A stretch of 64,000 nt of DNA. It comes from Escherichia coli. Its GTDB lineage: Bacteria > Pseudomonadota > Gammaproteobacteria > Enterobacterales > Enterobacteriaceae. Positions 5,158-34,293 of this stretch are shown in pieces (positions within the stretch are counted from its first letter, which is position 1; every line of letters starts with the position of its first letter). Where the stretch lies: the NCBI RefSeq assembly GCF_002854065.1, contig NZ_CP024153.1. One strand, 5' to 3'. The notes below the pieces were generated by a model, which made no database searches, was not told where the DNA came from, and saw only the letters and a list, made by a program, of their open reading frames with translations. A program made the translations under genes and the position numbers.

Positions 5158-5343
5158 CTAGGTATCAGATGGCGACAATCTCGCCAATGCTGCGTTTAAA
5201 GTCGGCCTAGACACACCAAAGTGTTTTGCAACTTCAGCTTTCGTTATCTCTACATCCGACAGCATGGCCCTTGCCTTCCTGGCGTCTTCATCTGACATGG
5301 CCAAGGGTCGCCCACCGCGTCGCCCTCTTGCCCTTGCTGCCTC
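5158..5343 (-). pseudogene. Serine recombinase (resolvase/invertase) 3' fragment with C-terminal HTH, truncated by IS26
   Basis: Protein tail ...GRRGGRPLAMSDEDARKARAMLSDVEITKAEVAKHFGVSRPTLNAALARL resembles a resolvase C-terminal DNA-binding domain; upstream part replaced by IS26. Confidence 0.55.
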
Positions 5344-6163
5344 GGCACTGTTGCAAATAGTCGGTGGTGATAAACTTATCATCCCCTTTTGCTGATGGAG
5401 CTGCACATGAACCCATTCAAAGGCCGGCATTTTCAGCGTGACATCATTCTGTGGGCCGTACGCTGGTACTGCAAATACGGCATCAGTTACCGTGAGCTGC
5501 AGGAGATGCTGGCTGAACGCGGAGTGAATGTCGATCACTCCACGATTTACCGCTGGGTTCAGCGTTATGCGCCTGAAATGGAAAAACGGCTGCGCTGGTA
5601 CTGGCGTAACCCTTCCGATCTTTGCCCGTGGCACATGGATGAAACCTACGTGAAGGTCAATGGCCGCTGGGCGTATCTGTACCGGGCCGTCGACAGCCGG
5701 GGCCGCACTGTCGATTTTTATCTCTCCTCCCGTCGTAACAGCAAAGCTGCATACCGGTTTCTGGGTAAAATCCTCAACAACGTGAAGAAGTGGCAGATCC
5801 CGCGATTCATCAACACGGATAAAGCGCCCGCCTATGGTCGCGCGCTTGCTCTGCTCAAACGCGAAGGCCGGTGCCCGTCTGACGTTGAACACCGACAGAT
5901 TAAGTACCGGAACAACGTGATTGAATGCGATCATGGCAAACTGAAACGGATAATCGGCGCCACGCTGGGATTTAAATCCATGAAGACGGCTTACGCCACC
6001 ATCAAAGGTATTGAGGTGATGCGTGCACTACGCAAAGGCCAGGCCTCAGCATTTTATTATGGTGATCCCCTGGGCGAAATGCGCCTGGTAAGCAGAGTTT
6101 TTGAAATGTAAGGCCTTTGAATAAGACAAAAGGCTGCCTCATCGCTAACTTTGCAACAGTGCC
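5344..6163 (+). mobile_element. IS26 copy 2
   Basis: Identical to copy 1 including terminal repeats. Confidence 0.95.
5389..6111 (+). CDS. tnpA: IS26 transposase Tnp26 (Gly184 form)
   Basis: Identical 240-aa ORF. Confidence 0.95.
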   Translation: MLMELHMNPFKGRHFQRDIILWAVRWYCKYGISYRELQEMLAERGVNVDHSTIYRWVQRYAPEMEKRLRWYWRNPSDLCPWHMDETYVKVNGRWAYLYRAVDSRGRTVDFYLSSRRNSKAAYRFLGKILNNVKKWQIPRFINTDKAPAYGRALALLKREGRCPSDVEHRQIKYRNNVIECDHGKLKRIIGATLGFKSMKTAYATIKGIEVMRALRKGQASAFYYGDPLGEMRLVSRVFEM

Positions 6164-6409
6164 GTCGATTGAAACACGGTGCATCTGATCGGACAGGGCG
6201 TCTAAGAGCGGCGCAATACGTCTGATCTCATCGGCCGGCGATACAGGCCTCGCGTCCGGATGGCTGGCGGCCGGTCCGACATCCACGACGTCTGATCCGA
6301 CTCGCAGCATTTCGATCGCCGCGGTGACAGCGCCGGCGGGGTCTAGCCGCCGGCTCTCATCGAAGAAGGAGTCCTCGGTGAGATTCAGAATGCCGAACAC
6401 CGTCACCAT
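6164..6409 (-). pseudogene. sul1: sul1 dihydropteroate synthase, first ~82 codons only; truncated by IS26
   Basis: [82 protein letters not shown] then IS26. Confidence 0.9.
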
Positions 6410-10086: not shown

Positions 10087-10768
10087 ATGAAAACCGCCAC
10101 TGCGCCGTTACCACCGCTGCGTTCGGTCAAGGTTCTGGACCAGTTGCGTGAGCGCATACGCTACTTGCATTACAGTTTACGAACCGAACAGGCTTATGTC
10201 CACTGGGTTCGTGCCTTCATCCGTTTCCACGGTGTGCGTCACCCGGCAACCTTGGGCAGCAGCGAAGTCGAGGCATTTCTGTCCTGGCTGGCGAACGAGC
10301 GCAAGGTTTCGGTCTCCACGCATCGTCAGGCATTGGCGGCCTTGCTGTTCTTCTACGGCAAGGTGCTGTGCACGGATCTGCCCTGGCTTCAGGAGATCGG
10401 AAGACCTCGGCCGTCGCGGCGCTTGCCGGTGGTGCTGACCCCGGATGAAGTGGTTCGCATCCTCGGTTTTCTGGAAGGCGAGCATCGTTTGTTCGCCCAG
10501 CTTCTGTATGGAACGGGCATGCGGATCAGTGAGGGTTTGCAACTGCGGGTCAAGGATCTGGATTTCGATCACGGCACGATCATCGTGCGGGAGGGCAAGG
10601 GCTCCAAGGATCGGGCCTTGATGTTACCCGAGAGCTTGGCACCCAGCCTGCGCGAGCAGCTGTCGCGTGCACGGGCATGGTGGCTGAAGGACCAGGCCGA
10701 GGGCCGCAGCGGCGTTGCGCTTCCCGACGCCCTTGAGCGGAAGTATCCGCGCGCCGGGCATTCCTGGC
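10087..10768 (+). pseudogene. intI1: intI1 class 1 integrase, 3'-truncated by IS26 (about 227 of 337 codons)
   Basis: [53 protein letters not shown]...; ORF runs into the IS26 terminal repeat at 10769. Confidence 0.9.
10174..10202 (-). promoter_or_regulatory. Integron Pc cassette promoter, TGGACA-N17-TAAACT (PcH1-type)
   Basis: Hexamers read on minus strand inside the intI1 5' region. Confidence 0.6.
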
Positions 10769-11588
10769 GGCACTGTTGCAAATAGTCGGTGGTGATAAAC
10801 TTATCATCCCCTTTTGCTGATGGAGCTGCACATGAACCCATTCAAAGGCCGGCATTTTCAGCGTGACATCATTCTGTGGGCCGTACGCTGGTACTGCAAA
10901 TACGGCATCAGTTACCGTGAGCTGCAGGAGATGCTGGCTGAACGCGGAGTGAATGTCGATCACTCCACGATTTACCGCTGGGTTCAGCGTTATGCGCCTG
11001 AAATGGAAAAACGGCTGCGCTGGTACTGGCGTAACCCTTCCGATCTTTGCCCGTGGCACATGGATGAAACCTACGTGAAGGTCAATGGCCGCTGGGCGTA
11101 TCTGTACCGGGCCGTCGACAGCCGGGGCCGCACTGTCGATTTTTATCTCTCCTCCCGTCGTAACAGCAAAGCTGCATACCGGTTTCTGGGTAAAATCCTC
11201 AACAACGTGAAGAAGTGGCAGATCCCGCGATTCATCAACACGGATAAAGCGCCCGCCTATGGTCGCGCGCTTGCTCTGCTCAAACGCGAAGGCCGGTGCC
11301 CGTCTGACGTTGAACACCGACAGATTAAGTACCGGAACAACGTGATTGAATGCGATCATGGCAAACTGAAACGGATAATCGGCGCCACGCTGGGATTTAA
11401 ATCCATGAAGACGGCTTACGCCACCATCAAAGGTATTGAGGTGATGCGTGCACTACGCAAAGGCCAGGCCTCAGCATTTTATTATGGTGATCCCCTGGGC
11501 GAAATGCGCCTGGTAAGCAGAGTTTTTGAAATGTAAGGCCTTTGAATAAGACAAAAGGCTGCCTCATCGCTAACTTTGCAACAGTGCC
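10769..11588 (+). mobile_element. IS26 copy 3
   Basis: 820 bp with both terminal repeats. Confidence 0.95.
10814..11536 (+). CDS. tnpA: IS26 transposase Tnp26 (Gly184 form)
   Basis: Identical 240-aa ORF. Confidence 0.95.
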   Translation: MLMELHMNPFKGRHFQRDIILWAVRWYCKYGISYRELQEMLAERGVNVDHSTIYRWVQRYAPEMEKRLRWYWRNPSDLCPWHMDETYVKVNGRWAYLYRAVDSRGRTVDFYLSSRRNSKAAYRFLGKILNNVKKWQIPRFINTDKAPAYGRALALLKREGRCPSDVEHRQIKYRNNVIECDHGKLKRIIGATLGFKSMKTAYATIKGIEVMRALRKGQASAFYYGDPLGEMRLVSRVFEM

Positions 11589-15174: not shown

Positions 15175-15552
15175 TTAGCTTTTTATTTGTTGAAAAAAGC
15201 TAATCAAATTGTTGTCGGGATCAATTACTGCAAAGTCTCGTTCATCCCACCACTGATCTTTTAATGATGTATTGGGGTGCAAAATGCCCAAAGGCTTAAT
15301 ATGTTGATATAATTCATCAATTCCCTCTACTTCAATGCGGCAACTAGCAGTACCAGCAATAAACGACTCCGCACCTGTACAAACCGGTGAATCATTACTA
15401 CGAGAGCGCCAGCCTTCATCACTTGCCTCCCATAGATGAATCCGAACCTCATTACACATTAGAACTGCGAATCCATCTTCATGGTGAACCAAAGTGAAAC
15501 CTAGTTTATCGCAATAAAAACCTATACTCTTTTTAATATCCCCGACTGGCAA
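15175..15552 (-). CDS. bleO: Bleomycin-binding protein, glyoxalase/VOC fold (BleO-like, Gram-positive type)
   Basis: 125 aa MPVGDIKKSIGFYCDKLGFTLVHHEDGFAVLMCNEVRIHLWEASDEGW... matches recalled pUB110-type Ble. Confidence 0.75.
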   Translation of the reverse strand: MPVGDIKKSIGFYCDKLGFTLVHHEDGFAVLMCNEVRIHLWEASDEGWRSRSNDSPVCTGAESFIAGTASCRIEVEGIDELYQHIKPLGILHPNTSLKDQWWDERDFAVIDPDNNLISFFQQIKS

Positions 15553-15648
15553 TGCCGGGATAGACTATTATTCTCCCCGGAGCCACTACGCTGACCCGGT
15601 TGATTTCAGAGGTAAGGGAAAAGGCGACGTTGCGCCTGTGGAACAAAC

Positions 15649-16470
15649 GGCACTGTTGCAAAGTTAGCGATGAGGCAGCCTTTTGTCTTATTCAAAGGCC
15701 TTACATTTCAAAAACTCTGCTTACCAGGCGCATTTCGCCCAGGGGATCACCATAATAAAATGCTGAGGCCTGGCCTTTGCGTAGTGCACGCATCACCTCA
15801 ATACCTTTGATGGTGGCGTAAGCCGTCTTCATGGATTTAAATCCCAGCGTGGCGTTGATTATCCGTTTCAGTTTGCCATGATCGCATTCAATCACGTTGT
15901 TCCGGTACTTAATCTGTCGGTGTTCAACGTCAGACGGGCACCGGCCTTCGCGTTTTGAGCAGAGCAAGCGCGCGACCATAGGCGGGCGCTTTATCCGTGT
16001 TGATGAATCGTGGGAATCTGCCACTTCTTCACGTTGTTGAGGATTTTACCCAGAAACCGGTATGCAGCTTTGCTGTTACGACGGGAGGAGAGATAAAAAT
16101 CGACAGTGCGGCCCCGGCTGTCGACGGCCCGGTACAGATACGCCCAGCGGCCATTGACCTTCACGTAGGTTTCATCCATGTGCCACGGGCAAAGATCGGA
16201 AGGGTTACGCCAGTACCAGCGCAGCCGTTTTTCCATTTCAGGCGCATAACGCTGAACCCAGCGGTAAATCGTGGAGTGATCGACATTCACTCCGCGTTCA
16301 GCCAGCATCTCCTGCAGCTCACGGTAACTGATGCCGTATTTGCAGTACCAGCGTACGGCCCACAGAATGATGTCACGCTGAAAATGCCGGCCTTTGAATG
16401 GGTTCATGTGCAGCTCCATCAGCAAAAGGGGATGATAAGTTTATCACCACCGACTATTTGCAACAGTGCC
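15649..16470 (-). mobile_element. IS26 copy 4 (822 bp; two 1-bp insertions)
   Basis: Both terminal repeats present; extra A at about 16010 (GGGAATCTG vs GGGATCTG) and extra T at about 15953 (GCGTTTTGAGC vs GCGTTTGAGC). Confidence 0.95.
15701..16425 (-). pseudogene. tnpA: IS26 tnpA disrupted by frameshift (split into 144-aa and 107-aa ORFs; Asn184 form)
   Basis: ORFs 15991-16425 and 15701-16024 together cover Tnp26 with a frame change between them. Confidence 0.85.
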
Positions 16471-16584: not shown

Positions 16585-16673
16585 GAACTATTGAAGTAAT
16601 CAATCAAATTTTATAGGCTGATAGCCAAGTAACAACCACCAATGATATGCCAGGTAAAATCAGGGGACGTAAA

Positions 16674-18110
16674 ATGAGTACTCTTGATGTTCAGAAGCTC
16701 AAGGATGATGCCGTCGAATGGGCCTTAACTCATGGTGTTGCTTTCAAGGAATCGTCGTATTCCGCAGTGCATACCCCGTTTACCCTGACACCAACACCTA
16801 TCAGCCGTAAATCCTATCAGTACTTAAAGAATGCAACAGGAATACTCAGCAAATTAATCTATTCAGTTTCTGAGGATCATGATTTTTTGTACTCTGCGAT
16901 TTATCCCATCAAGGCCGGGAATGCCTTCTTTTCAGCCCTCCTGAACATGCATCAACAAATCCATTCATCATCAAGGCATGCTCCTCGATTACCATTACTC
17001 ATTATGCGTAGCGACTTTATGGATGATAATCGTGATGGGTTCAGGCTTATAGAGTTCAATGGTATAGCTGCAGGAATGGGGCCGTTTGGTCAGCGGATAC
17101 ATGATCTGCATCACTATCTACAACGGCAATATCCCGCTGTCTTTTCTGATTTATCGAATCAGGCAACAGGGGCGCTTGTCGACAATCAAGCGATCGAAGG
17201 GTTATCAGCAGCGATTTGTCAGGCAACTTGCAGAATTAAGCAGGAGTTCGGAGACCCCGGCCCTGCCAGGTTCCTGATGATTGTGCAGGAGAATGAAAAT
17301 AATGTGTTTGATCAACACTTGCTTGAGCTCGCCCTCCAGCAAAAAGGAATCGAAACGCATCGCAGGACTTTTCGTGAACTGCATAATCAATTGAGTACAG
17401 GCGCCGACAACAGGCTCATTCTCGAGGGTGTAGGCCCACTTGATACCGTCTACTTACGTGCCGGATATCAGTATTCTGATTATGAAGCATTCAATATCGA
17501 TGAGCAGGAGTGTTGTCAGGCGCTGATGGCGACCCGAGTATTCATTGAGCAGCACCGGGTTGCAGTGAACGCCACAGTTGGCCAGCAACTGGCGACCAGC
17601 AAGCGAGTACAAATGCTGCTCTCGCAATTGGGTTACGACGAGTTTGTCGCATTTGGATTAACACTGCAGGAAGCTAAAATAGCAAAAACGATACTGGGTG
17701 AGATGTTACCCATCAGCCCGGATAGTATCAACCTTGCAAAAGAGTCTCCTTCGGAAACCTGGGTTCTCAAAAATCAGGGTGAAGGCGGGGGGCATTGTCT
17801 GTTTGGTGCGGATATCCTGACAAAACTGACGGAACTCACTCCACAACAATATCAGTCCTGGTCGCTGATGCGCCGTTTACACCCTCAGCCCCGAGCTATG
17901 CCCACCTTGATTGTGCGTAAAGGGGAGTTGCATAAGGTGAATGATTTGATAAGCGAACTTGGAATGTTCTCCGTGCAGACAGATAACAATCCCTCCAGTG
18001 CTGAGCACAGTTTTGCTGGATATCTAATTCGTAGCAAATCAGCTGAATCGACAGAGGGAGGGGTCCATAGTGGACAAGGTGTTTTAGACTCGCTGGTATA
18101 CAGCGATTAG
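16674..18110 (+). CDS. Eukaryotic-type glutathione synthetase-like ATP-grasp protein (ORF track start 16647)
   Basis: Blocks resembling recalled human GSS: TPFTLTPT, IEFNGIAAGMGP, LMIVQENENNVFDQ...IETHRRTFREL, VYLRAGYQ, KNQGEGGGHCLFG. Confidence 0.7.
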   Translation: MSTLDVQKLKDDAVEWALTHGVAFKESSYSAVHTPFTLTPTPISRKSYQYLKNATGILSKLIYSVSEDHDFLYSAIYPIKAGNAFFSALLNMHQQIHSSSRHAPRLPLLIMRSDFMDDNRDGFRLIEFNGIAAGMGPFGQRIHDLHHYLQRQYPAVFSDLSNQATGALVDNQAIEGLSAAICQATCRIKQEFGDPGPARFLMIVQENENNVFDQHLLELALQQKGIETHRRTFRELHNQLSTGADNRLILEGVGPLDTVYLRAGYQYSDYEAFNIDEQECCQALMATRVFIEQHRVAVNATVGQQLATSKRVQMLLSQLGYDEFVAFGLTLQEAKIAKTILGEMLPISPDSINLAKESPSETWVLKNQGEGGGHCLFGADILTKLTELTPQQYQSWSLMRRLHPQPRAMPTLIVRKGELHKVNDLISELGMFSVQTDNNPSSAEHSFAGYLIRSKSAESTEGGVHSGQGVLDSLVYSD

Positions 18111-18527
18111 TCCCTTTCAAGGGGGCTGAAATCTGGTTATATGAAAGCATGCGGTAAGTGGTGTTTTAGCCCCAGTGGAGATGATGCTGTTTCTAGACTG
18201 AGTCGTAGTAAGCTAATAATAGTATTATAAATGAAGCCATGAGGGTATTTACAGGGCATATCTTATTAAGGGAACAACAGCAAAAACTGCTGCTATAAGA
18301 GGCTGCACCCAAAGTTCTTCAAGGTTCACATCATCGCTGCTGGGTCGATGCTGTTTCAGTTACGGGTCAATTTTCAATACCATTAGCTGTTCCTGTGACT
18401 ACGGTCATTACGCGCTGTCGACATCAATTTGTACAGCAAACAGTCTTAGCGTGGGATATTTAATGAGATGGTCACTCCCTCCTTCCCGGTACTATGCTGA
18501 GGATAGGCTTTCATTCGGAGAACTATC

Positions 18528-19532
18528 ATGGAAAACATTGCGCTCATTGGTATCGATCTGGGTAAAAACTCTTTCCATATTCATTGCCAAGATCGTCGCG
18601 GCAAGGCTGTTTACCGTAAAAAATTTACACGGCCAAAGTTAATCGAATTTTTGGCGACATGCCCCGCTACAACCATCGCAATGGAAGCCTGTGGTGGCTC
18701 TCACTTTATGGCACGCAAGTTGGAAGAGTTGGGGCATTTTCCTAAGCTGATATCACCACAATTTGTCCGTCCATTCGTTAAAAGTAACAAAAACGACTTT
18801 GTCGACGCCGAAGCTATTTGTGAAGCTGCATCGCGTCCGTCTATGCGTTTTGTACAGCCCAGAACTGAATCTCAGCAGGCAATGCGTGCGCTGCATCGTG
18901 TCCGTGAATCCCTGGTTCAGGATAAGGTAAAAACAACCAATCAGATGCATGCTTTTCTGCTGGAATTTGGCATCAGCGTTCCACGAGGAGCTGCCGTTAT
19001 TAGCCGACTGAGTACCCTTCTTGAGGACAATAGTTTGCCTCTATACCTCAGCCAGTTATTGCTGAAATTACAACAGCATTATCACTATCTTGTTGAGCAG
19101 ATTAAAGATTTGGAATCCCAGTTGAAACGAAAGTTGGACGAAGATGAGATTGGACAGCGCTTGCTGAGCATTCCCTGCGTCGGAACACTGACAGCGAGTA
19201 CTATTTCAACTGAGATTGGCGACGGGAAGCAGTACGCCAGCAGTCGTGACTTTGCGGCGGCAACAGGGCTAGTGCCTCGACAGTACAGCACGGGAGGTCG
19301 GACGACATTGCTGGGAATTAGTAAGCGAGGTAACAAAAAGATCCGAACTTTGTTGGTTCAATGTGCCAGGGTATTCATACAAAAACTGGAACACCAGTCT
19401 GGCAAATTGGCCGATTGGGTCAGGGATCTACTGTGTAGGAAAAGCAACTTTGTCGTCACTTGTGCTCTGGCAAACAAGCTGGCCAGAATAGCCTGGGCCC
19501 TAACGGCACGACAGCAAACTTATGTAGCATAA
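18528..19532 (+). CDS. IS110-family (DEDD) transposase/recombinase
   Basis: 334 aa MENIALIGIDLGKNSFHIHCQD... N-terminal RuvC-like DEDD character and C-terminal ...GISKRGNKKIRTLLVQCA... motif typical of the IS110 family. Confidence 0.85.
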   Translation: MENIALIGIDLGKNSFHIHCQDRRGKAVYRKKFTRPKLIEFLATCPATTIAMEACGGSHFMARKLEELGHFPKLISPQFVRPFVKSNKNDFVDAEAICEAASRPSMRFVQPRTESQQAMRALHRVRESLVQDKVKTTNQMHAFLLEFGISVPRGAAVISRLSTLLEDNSLPLYLSQLLLKLQQHYHYLVEQIKDLESQLKRKLDEDEIGQRLLSIPCVGTLTASTISTEIGDGKQYASSRDFAAATGLVPRQYSTGGRTTLLGISKRGNKKIRTLLVQCARVFIQKLEHQSGKLADWVRDLLCRKSNFVVTCALANKLARIAWALTARQQTYVA

Positions 19533-19807
19533 CGGCAGAAATACACCGGTTTAAAGAATCACTGATCTGGTTTTGCGAATACTGATATTGATGATACTAA
19601 CGGCCCACCGGCCTGTTGAGGAACCTGTAAAACGGAAAGGCTCATTGAAGCCGTATATTTTCTGGAGGTTCATCAGGCGCGGAACTCATCGAGGCGCGGG
19701 AATAAAATCCCATTCAGACGCCGGATAGATTCAAGCAAGCCAATTTATCGTCAAAATCGGTGTTGCAAAAACGGGAGTGACCATAGATTCCGTTTTCCAA
19801 GCGGACC

Positions 19808-19870
19808 CCGTGCTGTGTGGAAATCCGCCCACCTTGCCGGGCGCCGGTGCTGTGTGGAAATTCGCCCATC
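19808..19870. repeat. About 1.6 copies of the 37-bp repeat unit (inverted relative to the 56063-57150 array), just downstream of the truncated rep gene
   Basis: CCGTGCTGTGTGGAAATCCGCCCACCTTGCCGGGCGCCGGTGCTGTGTGGAAATTCGCCC is the reverse complement of the array unit. Confidence 0.75.
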
Positions 19871-19919
19871 TTCATGACAAAAATTTGTCAAATGACAGGC
19901 TCATGTGTGCTGATTTATG

Positions 19920-20601
19920 TCAGACGGGATTTTGCTTATCAATTATTGAGAACAGAAATTTTCCTGAATCATCAATACTATACTTAGCAAGTAAAGGTGT
20001 TTTCTCATTTATCTGCTTGAGAGCAGGATCAAGGAAAGATCGTTTCAACTCTGCCAAGTTCTTCTGTTGGGATTCCGGCAAAAGGAAACGGTCATTTAAC
20101 CAAGCATGAGTAGTAACCCATAAGCCTGAAGATTTGAATTGAGCAAGACTTTCATAAAGGCGGATCGTCCGTGGATTTCGAAGACTGCCACAATCGCGGA
20201 GCGAGTAGGTGGTGAACTGGTTCGTCAGGCCGTAAATGTACCGCAGGAGTTTATGGTTAAATTCGATTTCCCAGATACCACGAGCTGATCGGCTGCCAGC
20301 CTCTGTTAGCCAGGGGCGCGCGACGCAGTCAAAACTCCCTTCTTTCGGGTAAAAGATTACCGCAGAACGGCTTAACTCAAACACGCCTTCTTTAACATCC
20401 TTGATAGCCTGGTTACGGCTTACCTGAAAAATTTGCTGATAGTCAGCCACCTTTACTTTGAAAGTAGAGTCACCGAGTACAGCCATCTCATCATCATCTT
20501 CGCTTACTGAAGCTGTGAAATACGTCTGCATAAGACATAACCAGAGAACGCGCTTTGCTTTTAGCGAGAGGTAGTAAGCAGCTTCGGTAAGCTCGTTAGA
20601 C
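19920..20601 (-). pseudogene. Rep_3-family (RepE-like) replication initiator, N-terminally truncated by IS26
   Basis: ...NELTEAAYYLSLKAKRVLWL...IRLYESLAQF... parallels recalled F RepE ([20 protein letters not shown]...MRLYESLCQY); first 17 residues of the ORF come from the IS26 end. Confidence 0.75.
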
Positions 20602-21421
20602 GGCACTGTTGCAAAGTTAGCGATGAGGCAGCCTTTTGTCTTATTCAAAGGCCTTACATTTCAAAAACTCTGCTTACCAGGCGCATTTCGCCCAGGGGAT
20701 CACCATAATAAAATGCTGAGGCCTGGCCTTTGCGTAGTGCACGCATCACCTCAATACCTTTGATGGTGGCGTAAGCCGTCTTCATGGATTTAAATCCCAG
20801 CGTGGCGTTGATTATCCGTTTCAGTTTGCCATGATCGCATTCAATCACGTTGTTCCGGTACTTAATCTGTCGGTGTTCAACGTCAGACGGGCACCGGCCT
20901 TCGCGTTTGAGCAGAGCAAGCGCGCGACCATAGGCGGGCGCTTTATCCGTGTTGATGAATCGTGGGATCTGCCACTTCTTCACGTTGTTGAGGATTTTAC
21001 CCAGAAACCGGTATGCAGCTTTGCTGTTACGACGGGAGGAGAGATAAAAATCGACAGTGCGGCCCCGGCTGTCGACGGCCCGGTACAGATACGCCCAGCG
21101 GCCATTGACCTTCACGTAGGTTTCATCCATGTGCCACGGGCAAAGATCGGAAGGGTTACGCCAGTACCAGCGCAGCCGTTTTTCCATTTCAGGCGCATAA
21201 CGCTGAACCCAGCGGTAAATCGTGGAGTGATCGACATTCACTCCGCGTTCAGCCAGCATCTCCTGCAGCTCACGGTAACTGATGCCGTATTTGCAGTACC
21301 AGCGTACGGCCCACAGAATGATGTCACGCTGAAAATGCCGGCCTTTGAATGGGTTCATGTGCAGCTCCATCAGCAAAAGGGGATGATAAGTTTATCACCA
21401 CCGACTATTTGCAACAGTGCC
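20602..21421 (-). mobile_element. IS26 copy 5 (variant: Asn184 plus one synonymous change)
   Basis: 820 bp; ...KLKRIINATLGFKS... Confidence 0.95.
20654..21376 (-). CDS. tnpA: IS26 transposase Tnp26 (Asn184 form)
   Basis: 240-aa ORF; GGC to AAC at codon 184 relative to copies 1-3. Confidence 0.95.
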   Translation of the reverse strand: MLMELHMNPFKGRHFQRDIILWAVRWYCKYGISYRELQEMLAERGVNVDHSTIYRWVQRYAPEMEKRLRWYWRNPSDLCPWHMDETYVKVNGRWAYLYRAVDSRGRTVDFYLSSRRNSKAAYRFLGKILNNVKKWQIPRFINTDKAPAYGRALALLKREGRCPSDVEHRQIKYRNNVIECDHGKLKRIINATLGFKSMKTAYATIKGIEVMRALRKGQASAFYYGDPLGEMRLVSRVFEM

Positions 21422-22474: not shown

Positions 22475-22726
22475 ATGAGCTATCAAATTCTGACAACCAC
22501 AGCGGCCAGTATTACTGACCTGAAAAAAAATCCTATGGGAACCGTAGCTGAAGGTGAAGGGGACGCTGTTGCGATCCTGAACCGAAACGAACCGGCGTTC
22601 TATTGCGTTCCACCAAAACTTTACGCCTACTATCGGGAACTCGCTGAAGATGCTGAGTTAAACGCTGTTGCTGATGAGCGCATGAAAAACCCGGAAATTG
22701 TGAAGGTTAACCTGGATGACCTATGA
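22475..22726 (+). CDS. Phd/YefM/StbD-type antitoxin
   Basis: 83-aa ORF overlapping the downstream RelE-like gene by 11 bp; typical antitoxin size and arrangement. Confidence 0.7.
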   Translation: MSYQILTTTAASITDLKKNPMGTVAEGEGDAVAILNRNEPAFYCVPPKLYAYYRELAEDAELNAVADERMKNPEIVKVNLDDL

Positions 22727-22997
22727 ACTGGCTTTTGACCGCAGAGCACTGAAGGAATGGCAGAAACTCGGCCACACCATCCGTGAACAATTCAAAAAGA
22801 AGCTGGCAGAACGGCTGGAAAATCCACGCGTACCCGCAGCCCGGTTACATGGTCATGCTGATCGCTATAAAATCAAACTTCGTGCATCTGGCTACAGACT
22901 TGTATATCAAGTCATTGATGAGAAAGTCGTTTTACTCGTTATTGCTGTTGGAAGAAGGGAAAGCAGCGAAGTTTATCAGATTGCAGATATGCGCTGA
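22716..22997 (+). CDS. RelE/StbE/ParE-family toxin
   Basis: 93 aa MTYELAFDRRALKEWQKLGHTIREQFKKKLAERLENPRVPAARLHGHADRYKIKLRASGYRLVYQVIDEKVVLLVIAVGRRE, characteristic RelE/StbE pattern. Confidence 0.8.
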   Translation: MTYELAFDRRALKEWQKLGHTIREQFKKKLAERLENPRVPAARLHGHADRYKIKLRASGYRLVYQVIDEKVVLLVIAVGRRESSEVYQIADMR

Positions 22998-27457: not shown

Positions 27458-28277
27458 GGCACTGTTGCAAATAGTCGGTGGTGATAAACTTATCATCCCC
27501 TTTTGCTGATGGAGCTGCACATGAACCCATTCAAAGGCCGGCATTTTCAGCGTGACATCATTCTGTGGGCCGTACGCTGGTACTGCAAATACGGCATCAG
27601 TTACCGTGAGCTGCAGGAGATGCTGGCTGAACGCGGAGTGAATGTCGATCACTCCACGATTTACCGCTGGGTTCAGCGTTATGCGCCTGAAATGGAAAAA
27701 CGGCTGCGCTGGTACTGGCGTAACCCTTCCGATCTTTGCCCGTGGCACATGGATGAAACCTACGTGAAGGTCAATGGCCGCTGGGCGTATCTGTACCGGG
27801 CCGTCGACAGCCGGGGCCGCACTGTCGATTTTTATCTCTCCTCCCGTCGTAACAGCAAAGCTGCATACCGGTTTCTGGGTAAAATCCTCAACAACGTGAA
27901 GAAGTGGCAGATCCCACGATTCATCAACACGGATAAAGCGCCCGCCTATGGTCGCGCGCTTGCTCTGCTCAAACGCGAAGGCCGGTGCCCGTCTGACGTT
28001 GAACACCGACAGATTAAGTACCGGAACAACGTGATTGAATGCGATCATGGCAAACTGAAACGGATAATCAACGCCACGCTGGGATTTAAATCCATGAAGA
28101 CGGCTTACGCCACCATCAAAGGTATTGAGGTGATGCGTGCACTACGCAAAGGCCAGGCCTCAGCATTTTATTATGGTGATCCCCTGGGCGAAATGCGCCT
28201 GGTAAGCAGAGTTTTTGAAATGTAAGGCCTTTGAATAAGACAAAAGGCTGCCTCATCGCTAACTTTGCAACAGTGCC
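27458..28277 (+). mobile_element. IS26 copy 6 (Asn184 variant); left arm of Tn6010-like oqx unit
   Basis: 820 bp with terminal repeats. Confidence 0.95.
27503..28225 (+). CDS. tnpA: IS26 transposase Tnp26 (Asn184 form)
   Basis: 240-aa ORF. Confidence 0.95.
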   Translation: MLMELHMNPFKGRHFQRDIILWAVRWYCKYGISYRELQEMLAERGVNVDHSTIYRWVQRYAPEMEKRLRWYWRNPSDLCPWHMDETYVKVNGRWAYLYRAVDSRGRTVDFYLSSRRNSKAAYRFLGKILNNVKKWQIPRFINTDKAPAYGRALALLKREGRCPSDVEHRQIKYRNNVIECDHGKLKRIINATLGFKSMKTAYATIKGIEVMRALRKGQASAFYYGDPLGEMRLVSRVFEM

Positions 28278-33473: not shown

Positions 33474-34293
33474 GGCACTGTTGCAAATAGTCGGTGGTGA
33501 TAAACTTATCATCCCCTTTTGCTGATGGAGCTGCACATGAACCCATTCAAAGGCCGGCATTTTCAGCGTGACATCATTCTGTGGGCCGTACGCTGGTACT
33601 GCAAATACGGCATCAGTTACCGTGAGCTGCAGGAGATGCTGGCTGAACGCGGAGTGAATGTCGATCACTCCACGATTTACCGCTGGGTTCAGCGTTATGC
33701 GCCTGAAATGGAAAAACGGCTGCGCTGGTACTGGCGTAACCCTTCCGATCTTTGCCCGTGGCACATGGATGAAACCTACGTGAAGGTCAATGGCCGCTGG
33801 GCGTATCTGTACCGGGCCGTCGACAGCCGGGGCCGCACTGTCGATTTTTATCTCTCCTCCCGTCGTAACAGCAAAGCTGCATACCGGTTTCTGGGTAAAA
33901 TCCTCAACAACGTGAAGAAGTGGCAGATCCCACGATTCATCAACACGGATAAAGCGCCCGCCTATGGTCGCGCGCTTGCTCTGCTCAAACGCGAAGGCCG
34001 GTGCCCGTCTGACGTTGAACACCGACAGATTAAGTACCGGAACAACGTGATTGAATGCGATCATGGCAAACTGAAACGGATAATCAACGCCACGCTGGGA
34101 TTTAAATCCATGAAGACGGCTTACGCCACCATCAAAGGTATTGAGGTGATGCGTGCACTACGCAAAGGCCAGGCCTCAGCATTTTATTATGGTGATCCCC
34201 TGGGCGAAATGCGCCTGGTAAGCAGAGTTTTTGAAATGTAAGGCCTTTGAATAAGACAAAAGGCTGCCTCATCGCTAACTTTGCAACAGTGCC
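33474..34293 (+). mobile_element. IS26 copy 7 (Asn184 variant); right arm of Tn6010-like oqx unit
   Basis: 820 bp with terminal repeats; same orientation as copy 6. Confidence 0.95.
33519..34241 (+). CDS. tnpA: IS26 transposase Tnp26 (Asn184 form)
   Basis: 240-aa ORF. Confidence 0.95.
   Translation: MLMELHMNPFKGRHFQRDIILWAVRWYCKYGISYRELQEMLAERGVNVDHSTIYRWVQRYAPEMEKRLRWYWRNPSDLCPWHMDETYVKVNGRWAYLYRAVDSRGRTVDFYLSSRRNSKAAYRFLGKILNNVKKWQIPRFINTDKAPAYGRALALLKREGRCPSDVEHRQIKYRNNVIECDHGKLKRIINATLGFKSMKTAYATIKGIEVMRALRKGQASAFYYGDPLGEMRLVSRVFEM

What the first reader, a model, noticed from the sequence alone, without database searches (positions are those of the whole stretch)
18111..19700. IS110-family element whose upstream non-coding region may encode a bridge RNA
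IS110-family recombinases are now known to be guided by a structured non-coding RNA encoded at the element end. The ~400 bp upstream of the recombinase gene (18111-18527) is non-coding and could contain it; the element boundaries are not obvious, as expected for a family without terminal inverted repeats.
Basis: established knowledge. Interest (0 to 1): 0.4.

Follow-up and report, generated by a model that had tools for sequence, protein, structure and literature searches.

The report
IS4321 element; guide RNA lies downstream
This is an ordinary copy of the well-known plasmid insertion sequence IS4321, whose RNA guide is encoded after the recombinase gene rather than in the 400 bases before it, which are not part of the element.

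Summary
The gene at 18528-19532 does encode an IS110-family DEDD recombinase. The element is IS4321, of the IS1111 subgroup, and its ends are sharp. It spans 18461-19787 (1327 bp) and has perfect 12-bp subterminal inverted repeats. It sits inside a 38-bp Tn21-type transposon inverted repeat. An empty site in another plasmid confirms both junctions and shows no target duplication.

The upstream stretch 18111-18460 is flanking DNA. It shows no significant fold and no match to a covariance model.

The guide RNA is in the 255-bp region downstream of the gene. A covariance model built only from distant relatives hits 19586-19741 (148 bits, E 5e-35). A stem-loop with compensatory base changes (19611-19678) holds two guide segments:
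- 19627-19638 is complementary to the top strand right of the insertion point.
- 19653-19665 matches the top strand across the insertion point.

In 24 relatives with other targets, these two blocks change with the flanks (0 of 20000 permutations reach the observed match). This is the published IS1111 seekRNA/bridge-RNA arrangement. Durrant et al. 2024 already list the IS4321 bridge RNA in the right end.

The verdict is that the element is already known.

The parts
18111..18444 (.). Flanking plasmid DNA, not part of the IS. It lies between the glutathione-synthase-like gene and the transposon inverted repeat.
   Evidence: It is not shared by other IS copies. It is retained in empty-site plasmids. 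Fold z-score is -1.1. No covariance-model match and no Rfam match.
18445..18460 (.). Left (inner) 16 bp of the 38-bp Tn21-type terminal inverted repeat that is the insertion target: CTTAGCGTGGGATATT.
   Evidence: Joined to 19788-19809, it reproduces the uninterrupted 38-bp repeat found in pD90-1. The same split occurs in six other copies.
18461..19787 (+). Complete IS4321-type insertion sequence (IS1111 subgroup of the IS110 family), 1327 bp.
   Evidence: Ends TAATGAG...AGA are identical in six independent plasmid copies, all 1327 bp. An empty site exists. Identity is 96-99.7% to copies whose transposase is annotated IS4321 family and about 93% to those annotated IS5075 family. The boundary is ambiguous by one T.
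18461..18467 (+). 7-bp left terminal extension (TAATGAG). Its first four bases supply most of the -10 hexamer when the ends are joined.
   Evidence: The 7 bp left / 3 bp right rule is from PMC11187229.
18468..18479 (+). Left subterminal inverted repeat ATGGTCACTCCC.
   Evidence: pair I3: 12 nt, 100% complementary.
18528..19532 (+). Gene for the DEDD recombinase/transposase (334 aa).
   Evidence: D10, E53, D90, D93 and the motif GLVPRQYSTG are invariant among 14 homologues.
19533..19787 (+). 255-bp 3' non-coding region (right end) of the IS.
   Evidence: All relatives have a short left end (67-73 bp) and a long right end (about 255-295 bp).
19586..19741 (+). Core of the guide RNA (seekRNA / bridge RNA).
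   Evidence: Covariance model R1, built from relatives only, scores 148.2 bits, E 5.1e-35. There are 0 differences in 156 nt between this copy and IS5075, against 20% divergence at third codon positions.
19611..19678 (+). Target-binding stem-loop. Helices are 19611-19619/19670-19678, 19624-19626/19666-19668 and 19639-19641/19650-19652, around an internal loop.
   Evidence: RNAalifold consensus. Pair counts show compensatory changes in 5 of 8 and 2 of 3 pairs of the outer and inner helices.
19627..19638 (+). 5' guide segment GUAAAACGGAAA. It is complementary to the top strand from the last base left of the insertion point through the right flank (T|TTCCGTTTT).
   Evidence: It contains the longest match of the whole IS to its target, 10 nt. 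It falls in a variable block of the alignment and covaries with the flanks.
19653..19665 (+). 3' guide segment GUAUAUUUUCUGG. It has the same sense as the top strand across the insertion point (ATATT|TTC), so it would pair with the bottom strand.
   Evidence: It contains the second longest match, 8 nt. Its register is fixed in relatives. Own flank matches 4.83 of 7 against 1.97 of 7 for other flanks.
19679..19741 (+). Second, nearly invariant RNA domain. It comprises the hairpin 19693-19722 and conserved flanking segments (GCGGAACUCAUCGA; GGAUAGAUUCAAGCAAGCC). It may have a donor-end or protein-binding role, but this is not established.
   Evidence: all four pairs of helix 10 show compensatory changes. 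Short matches to the IS ends are described in the report.
19763..19768 (+). -35 hexamer TTGCAA of the promoter that forms only when right and left ends are abutted in the excised circle (TTGCAA-17 nt-GATAAT).
   Evidence: The hexamer is invariant in 40 sequences. The junction promoter is described for the family in PMC11187229.
19773..19784 (+). Right subterminal inverted repeat GGGAGTGACCAT.
   Evidence: pair I3.
19785..19787 (+). 3-bp right terminal extension AGA.
19788..19809 (.). Right (outer) 22 bp of the 38-bp target inverted repeat: TTCCGTTTTCCAAGCGGACCCC.

Best explanation
The locus is one intact copy of IS4321, an IS1111-subgroup member of the IS110 family, at 18461-19787. It is inserted in its usual fixed orientation and position inside the 38-bp terminal inverted repeat of a Tn21-type (Tn3-family) transposon end.

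The element encodes a 334-aa DEDD recombinase and a guide RNA in its 255-bp 3' non-coding region. The RNA folds into a stem-loop whose internal loop exposes two guide segments.
- The 5' segment (19627-19638) pairs with the top strand of the target just right of the crossover point.
- The 3' segment (19653-19665) pairs with the bottom strand across and left of the crossover point.
- The two footprints overlap on the T-rich core.

This is how the element finds Tn21-type repeats. When the element excises as a circle, the abutted ends create a promoter (TTGCAA-17-GATAAT). That promoter would drive the recombinase gene and, by read-through, the RNA.

Shown here:
- the exact ends and the empty site;
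- the conserved RNA structure with compensatory changes;
- guide-to-target complementarity and its covariation across relatives;
- the junction promoter sequence.

Inferred from published work on relatives (ISEc11, ISKpn4, ISPa11, IS621): transcription and processing of the RNA, its binding to the recombinase, and activity of this particular copy.
For: - Protein family.
- Ends and target: subterminal repeats; six independent 1327-bp copies in Tn21-type repeats at the same position and orientation; uninterrupted site in pD90-1 with no duplication.
- RNA position: the two longest matches of the whole IS to its target lie 17 nt apart in the 3' region.
- Alignment: 40 right ends (64-100% protein identity) show a conserved scaffold with two variable blocks exactly at these positions.
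- Structure: 47 consensus pairs are 97.4% paired, against 31-48% when slid. Seventeen pairs have compensatory change, and 0 of 500 shuffles reach this.
- Guide covariation: guides match their own flanks 13.0 of 17 against 7.46 of 17 for other flanks; 0 of 20000 permutations reach this.
- Independent covariance model: it hits 19586-19741 at 148 bits, E 5e-35.
- Selection: 0 of 156 differences from IS5075 despite 20% third-codon divergence.
- Junction promoter.
- Literature: NCR downstream and the top-strand match 5' of the bottom-strand match in IS1111 seekRNAs (PMC11187229). IS1111 bridge RNAs are in the right end, and IS4321 is listed as 'RE' in a supplementary table (PMC11208160).
Against: - No expression data are available for this RNA.
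- Rfam has no family that matches it, so the RNA assignment rests on my own model and on the literature.
- The single-sequence fold of the 106-nt core is not better than shuffles (z -0.3). Only the comparative evidence is strong.
- How the element's own ends (the donor) are recognised is unresolved. Candidate donor-matching strings are only 5-6 nt and invariant, so they cannot be tested by covariation.
- Part of the 3' conservation overlaps DNA-level signals (-35 box, subterminal repeat).
Confidence: 0.9

Rival explanations
1. One reading: the guide RNA is encoded in the roughly 400 bp upstream of the recombinase gene (18111-18527), as in IS621/IS110-subgroup elements.
For: In the IS110 subgroup the bridge RNA is in the 5' (left) end (PMC11208160). 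The stretch is non-coding.
Against: - 18111-18460 is outside the element.
- Only 67 bp of left end exist, here and in all 39 distinct relatives.
- The fold is not significant.
- No covariance-model match even with filters off and no Rfam match.
- No target-matching strings of 7 nt or more occur in the left end of the IS.
Confidence: 0.02
2. The 3' non-coding region is conserved for DNA-level reasons only (recombinase binding sites, promoter, subterminal repeat), and no functional RNA is made.
For: The -35 box and subterminal repeat lie in this region. Many helix pairs never vary, so they say nothing either way.
Against: - Compensatory changes keep pairing in 17 pairs.
- The two variable blocks track both strands of each element's own target.
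- Relatives' RNAs from this region co-purify with their transposases and are essential (PMC11187229).
Confidence: 0.04
3. Sub-rival on mechanism: the RNA is a two-loop bridge RNA in the IS621 sense. The second conserved domain (19679-19741) would base-pair with the element's own ends: GGAUAGAU with the right end ATAGA|T, and CUCAU with ATGAG of the left end. The alternative is a target-only seekRNA, with the ends recognised by the protein through the subterminal repeats.
For: - The second domain is as invariant as the IS ends TAATGAGA...CATAGA.
- Its hairpin is supported by compensatory changes (helix 10).
Against: - The matches are only 5-6 nt, which is expected by chance in 255 nt.
- They do not change where relatives' ends change (L063, L077, L081, L084).
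- CUCAUCG is predicted instead to pair with the invariant UGAUGA at 19589-19594.
- An 82-nt seekRNA holding only the target loop suffices for ISEc11.
Confidence: 0.3
4. The copy is an inactive relic: the sequence features are present but no longer function.
For: No activity data exist. The window holds only this one copy.
Against: - The ORF is intact and 100% identical to a protein found on many plasmids.
- Both ends, both repeats and the RNA core are identical to other copies.
- The element is 1327 bp, like all others.
Confidence: 0.1

Closest known systems
IS4321 / IS5075 (IS1111 subgroup; Partridge and Hall 2003, cited in PMC11187229 and PMC11208160)
   Same: - Length is 1327 bp and the transposase is 334 aa.
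- It has 12-bp subterminal inverted repeats with 7-bp and 3-bp extensions.
- Insertion is at one position and in one orientation in 38-bp Tn21-family inverted repeats.
- The protein is 100% identical to proteins annotated as IS4321 family.
- The sequence printed for IS4321 in Durrant's supplementary table matches over the part shown.
   Different: Nothing of substance. This copy differs by a few percent at synonymous sites from other IS4321-type copies and by about 7% from IS5075. I could not compare it with the ISfinder reference entry itself.
seekRNA of IS1111-family elements ISEc11, ISKpn4, ISPa11, ISPst6 (Siddiquee et al. 2024, PMC11187229)
   Same: - The RNA is encoded in the non-coding region downstream of tnp.
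- It has a stem-loop with two short target matches, and the top-strand match is 5' of the bottom-strand match.
- The two matches overlap in the target.
- Relatives are naturally retargeted by replacement of just these blocks.
- A junction promoter forms on the circle.
   Different: The IS4321 RNA itself was not among those purified or sequenced there. The target is a transposon inverted repeat rather than attC, REP or other sites. The extent and processing of the RNA are inferred here.
IS621 bridge RNA (Durrant et al. 2024, PMC11208160; Hiraizumi et al. 2024, PMC11208158)
   Same: It pairs a DEDD recombinase with a structured RNA. An internal loop reads both strands of the target around a short core, and the specificity is programmable.
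   Different: - The RNA is at the opposite end of the element (3', not 5').
- The order of strand matches is reversed.
- This element has long subterminal repeats.
- A clear donor-binding internal loop is not demonstrable here.

Membership tests
IS110 family (DEDD recombinase IS) | N-terminal DEDD/RuvC-like domain (PF01548) and C-terminal PF02371 domain | tested here: met
   (E 1.8e-20 and 4.5e-20). NF033542 at 341 bits against a cut-off of 140.
IS1111 subgroup | Subterminal inverted repeats of sufficient length (7-17 bp), with asymmetric terminal extensions (7 bp left, 3 bp right) | tested here: met
   The repeats are 12 bp and perfect, at 18468-18479 and 19773-19784. The ends lie 7 and 3 bp beyond them, confirmed by six copies and an empty site.
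IS1111 subgroup | Long non-coding region downstream of tnp and a short left end | tested here: met
   The left end is 67 bp and the right end 255 bp. The same holds in 39 distinct relatives.
IS1111 subgroup | Transposase of 330-350 aa with a C-terminal GL-P----S(t)G motif | tested here: met
   The protein is 334 aa. GLVPRQYSTG occupies residues 247-256, and G247, L248, P250, T255 and G256 are invariant in 14 homologues.
IS1111 subgroup | Site- and orientation-specific insertion without target duplication | tested here: met
   The position and orientation are the same in all copies examined. The empty site equals the joined flanks.
IS4321/IS5075 isoform group | [quoted passage not shown] | tested here: met
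   The Tn21 repeat sequence itself was recalled from memory; the Tn3-family transposase, merR and resolvase neighbours are consistent with it.
IS4321/IS5075 isoform group | Near-identity to the ISfinder reference sequence | not testable with these tools
   ISfinder is not available. Indirect evidence: RefSeq product names and the protein printed for IS4321 in the supplement of PMC11208160.
seekRNA / IS1111-type bridge RNA | Conserved RNA secondary structure in the right end | tested here: met
seekRNA / IS1111-type bridge RNA | [quoted passage not shown] | tested here: met
seekRNA / IS1111-type bridge RNA | The RNA is transcribed, binds the transposase and is required for movement | not testable with these tools
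   Shown only for relatives (PMC11187229).
IS621-type bridge RNA (IS110 subgroup) | RNA encoded in the 5' non-coding left end | tested here: not met
   The left end is 67 bp and has no model hit. The RNA is in the right end.
IS621-type bridge RNA (IS110 subgroup) | A separate donor-binding internal loop complementary to both strands of the element's ends | tested here: inconclusive
   Only 5-6 nt invariant matches were found (ATAGAT, CUCAT). There is no covariation to test, and an alternative intramolecular pairing is predicted.

The most novel reading that the evidence does not exclude
The nearly invariant second domain of the IS4321-group RNA (19679-19741) may be a true donor-recognition module. 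It would act together with the invariant UUGAUGA at 19588-19594 and a partial copy of the subterminal repeat at about 19557-19564. The RNA would then read the element's own ends as well as the target, through a multi-loop architecture unlike the IS621 donor loop. It might include a kink-turn-like UGAUGA element, of the kind that links IS110 recombinases to Nop5 and C/D-box RNAs.
Probability: 0.2. Interest if true: 0.45.

Novelty: already known. Interest (0 to 1): 0.12.

Why it matters
The main value is correct annotation. IS4321/IS5075 is among the most common insertion sequences on resistance plasmids; more than 5000 plasmid records hold a copy. This report gives exact ends, the position of its guide RNA and the two guide segments that explain why it lands only in Tn21-type inverted repeats.

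The set of relatives collected here forms a natural retargeting series. The RNA scaffold is the same, but the guide blocks and targets differ. This independently supports the published seekRNA/bridge-RNA model. It does not reveal a new kind of system.

Tried and rejected
- Rfam scan of 17000-21000 at E up to 1 found no family, so Rfam cannot be used to call this RNA.
- Single-sequence folding did not decide the matter. The whole 3' region gives z -3.0, the 106-nt core gives z -0.3 and the upstream region gives z -1.1.
- A tblastn search of plasmids for diverged relatives was saturated by 5000 near-identical copies. I replaced it with a protein search and a scan of genome contigs.
- Partridge and Hall 2003 (PMC219399) is not held in the library. 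Its content is cited only through later papers or marked as memory.
- I searched the window for a partner copy of the 38-bp repeat. Only the interrupted one is present.
- I tested whether a segment upstream of the RNA core pairs with the right subterminal repeat and covaries with it. The result was not significant: own 5.19 against others 5.03, with 3137 of 20000 permutations at least as high.
- Donor-guide matches were considered but not adopted, because they are short and invariant.
- A consensus promoter scan of the integrated element found no + strand promoter upstream of tnp. This fits expression from the circle junction.

Full report
**What is at the locus**

The ORF 18528-19532 (+) encodes a 334-aa protein with the two Pfam domains of IS110-family recombinases, PF01548 DEDD_Tnp_IS110 and PF02371. 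It matches NCBIfam NF033542, 'IS110 family RNA-guided transposase', at 341 bits against a cut-off of 140. It is 100% identical to proteins annotated 'IS110-like element IS4321 family transposase' on many enterobacterial plasmids. At the DNA level, more than 5000 plasmid records hold a copy. Those whose transposase is annotated IS4321 family are 96-99.7% identical, and those annotated IS5075 family are about 93% identical.

**Boundaries**

The ends are sharp, contrary to the finding.
- A perfect 12-bp inverted repeat lies at 18468-18479 (ATGGTCACTCCC) and 19773-19784 (GGGAGTGACCAT).
- IS1111-subgroup elements carry such subterminal repeats with 7-bp left and 3-bp right extensions (PMC11187229). 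This places the ends at 18461 and 19787, a length of 1327 bp.
- I fetched six independent plasmid copies. All are 1327 bp and all begin TAATGAG-ATGGTCACTCCC and end GGGAGTGACCAT-AGA.
- All six lie at the same position and in the same orientation in a 38-bp sequence of the type CTTAGCGTGCTTTATT|TTCCGTTTTCTGAGACGACCCC. Tn3-family transposase, resolvase or merR genes lie alongside. From memory, this is the Tn21-family terminal inverted repeat.
- In the window the two halves are 18445-18460 and 19788-19809.
- Many plasmids carry the same neighbourhood without the IS. In pD90-1 (NZ_CP022451.1) the sequence reads ...CAGTCTTAGCGTGGGATATTTTCCGTTTTCCAAGCGGACCCCGTGCTG.... This is exactly the window's two flanks joined, with no duplication.
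- The junction is ambiguous by a single T.

Of 18111-18527, only the last 67 bp belong to the element. Several results show that 18111-18460 is flanking DNA.
- Other IS copies start aligning only at window 18445-18457.
- The stretch is retained in empty-site plasmids.
- Its fold is no better than shuffles (z -1.1).
- Rfam finds nothing.
- The family covariance model described below finds nothing there even with filters off; the best match is 1.7 bits.

**Where the RNA is**

The two longest matches between the whole IS and its target lie in the 255-bp region after the stop codon.
- AAAACGGAAA at 19629-19638 is complementary to T|TTCCGTTTT.
- ATATTTTC at 19655-19662 has the same sense as ATATT|TTC.

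To test whether this is more than chance, I collected relatives. A protein search and a scan of one genome per species gave 80 loci at 64-100% protein identity. These yielded 39 distinct right ends.
- All have a 67-73 bp left end, a right end of about 255-295 bp and ends TAATGAGA...CATAGA.
- In nearly all of them the right flank starts with TT(T).
- Their targets differ widely.

The alignment of 40 right ends (A2) shows a strongly conserved scaffold interrupted by two variable blocks. These blocks fall exactly at the two target-matching positions.

**Structure**

The RNAalifold consensus puts the two variable blocks on opposite sides of an internal loop. In window coordinates the enclosing helices are:
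- 19611-19619 with 19670-19678;
- 19624-19626 with 19666-19668;
- 19639-19641 with 19650-19652.

A second hairpin lies at 19693-19722. Long-range helices join 19571-19594 to 19686-19691 and 19757-19770.

Counting pairs on the alignment gives 97.4% of cells paired, against 31-48% when partners are slid by 1-3 columns. Seventeen of the 47 pairs have compensatory changes, and 0 of 500 shuffles reach this.

**Guide-target covariation**

For 24 non-redundant relatives, I compared the block homologous to 19627-19638 with the reverse complement of each element's right flank. I compared the block homologous to 19653-19659 with each element's left flank.
- Own flanks match 13.0 of 17 positions.
- Other elements' flanks match 7.46 of 17.
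- None of 20000 permutations reaches the observed value.

The 3' block is in a fixed register. The 5' block needed a tolerance of 0-2 nt.

**Independent model test**

I built a covariance model from 29 relatives only, excluding every IS4321/IS5075-like sequence (A3, R1). In the 64-kb window it hits 19586-19741 (+) at 148.2 bits, E 5.1e-35. Apart from a weak reverse-strand echo of the same locus, the only other match is a 12.7-bit hit at 10712-10762, E 0.12.

**Selection**

Between this copy and IS5075, third codon positions differ at 20% of sites. The 156-nt RNA core has no difference. The probability of that at the third-position divergence rate is about 8e-16.

**Mechanism**

The arrangement is the one published for IS1111-family seekRNAs.
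- The non-coding region lies downstream of tnp.
- The top-strand match is 5' of the bottom-strand match.
- The two matches overlap at the insertion point.
- Relatives are naturally retargeted by replacing just those blocks (PMC11187229).

Durrant et al. likewise place IS1111 bridge RNAs in the right end. Their supplementary table lists IS4321 (with IS4321L, IS4321R and IS5075) as 'RE, IS1111'.

Joining the right and left ends gives TTGCAA-17 nt-GATAAT, and both hexamer halves are invariant. This matches the circle-junction promoter described for the family. No + strand promoter consensus is found upstream of tnp in the integrated state.

Transcription, processing, protein binding and the activity of this copy are inferred, not shown.

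**What remains open**

It is unresolved how the element's own ends are recognised. The second conserved domain carries GGAUAGAU (compare the right end ATAGA|T) and CUCAU (complementary to ATGAG in the left end). These matches are short and invariant, and they do not track the few end variants among relatives. CUCAUCG is predicted instead to pair with the invariant UGAUGA at 19589-19594. For ISEc11, an 82-nt RNA holding only the target loop is sufficient. I therefore treat a donor-binding loop as possible but unproven.

**Verdict**

This is a known element, IS4321, with a known kind of guide RNA at its known location in the right end. It was wrong about the end of the element, wrong about the absence of inverted repeats, and the proposed upstream region lies outside the IS. 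Interest is low.

Noticed in passing
window 19807-19872, compared with L087 2857-3144: Two 37-bp direct repeats (CCCGTGCTGTGTGGAAATCCGCCCACCTT...) lie between the transposon repeat and a Rep3-type initiator gene at 19920-20648 (-). They look like iterons. The otherwise collinear plasmid pD90-1 has at least eight tandem copies, so the array here appears shortened.
   Followed up: partly
window 15647-16470, plus copies at 1981-2800, 5342-6166, 10768-11588, 20602-21421, 27458-28277 and 33474-34293: The window holds seven full-length IS26 copies. The copy at 15647-16470 has two gap positions relative to the intact one, and its transposase reading frame is split into two ORFs (15701-16024 and 15991-16425).
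   Followed up: partly
window 16647-18110: A 487-aa protein with eukaryotic-type glutathione synthase domains (PF03917, PF03199) is encoded immediately left of the interrupted transposon repeat. The same gene-plus-IS arrangement recurs on more than 100 enterobacterial plasmids.
   Followed up: no
L021 1112-1131 / 2478-2499, L045 1111-1130 / 2485-2506, L054, L082: Several relatives of IS4321 in Serratia, Xenorhabdus, Photorhabdus and a soil MAG sit exactly between a GC-rich hairpin and a run of T, for example GCCCCGCGATGCGGGGC|TTTTTTAT. These sites look like intrinsic terminators, and the guide blocks match them.
   Followed up: partly
window 19588-19594: UUGAUGA is almost invariant in all 40 right ends, and it resembles a box C motif. 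It is predicted to pair with UCAUCG at 19686-19691. Whether it forms a kink-turn-like element was not examined.
   Followed up: no
window about 19557-19564: A short GTYACC/TCACT-like motif resembling the left subterminal repeat lies just upstream of the conserved RNA core in most relatives. Its pairing with the right repeat was not significant in a permutation test.
   Followed up: yes
window 15175-15552 (-) and 22716-22997 (+): The first is a glyoxalase/bleomycin-resistance-type ORF (PF00903, Ble-like N-terminal domain) next to the damaged IS26. The second is a ParE-family toxin gene, with a small upstream partner ORF at 22475-22726.
   Followed up: no
window 10712-10762 (-): A weak match to the covariance model (12.7 bits, E 0.12, 69% G+C) lies next to an IS26 end. 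It is probably chance.
   Followed up: no
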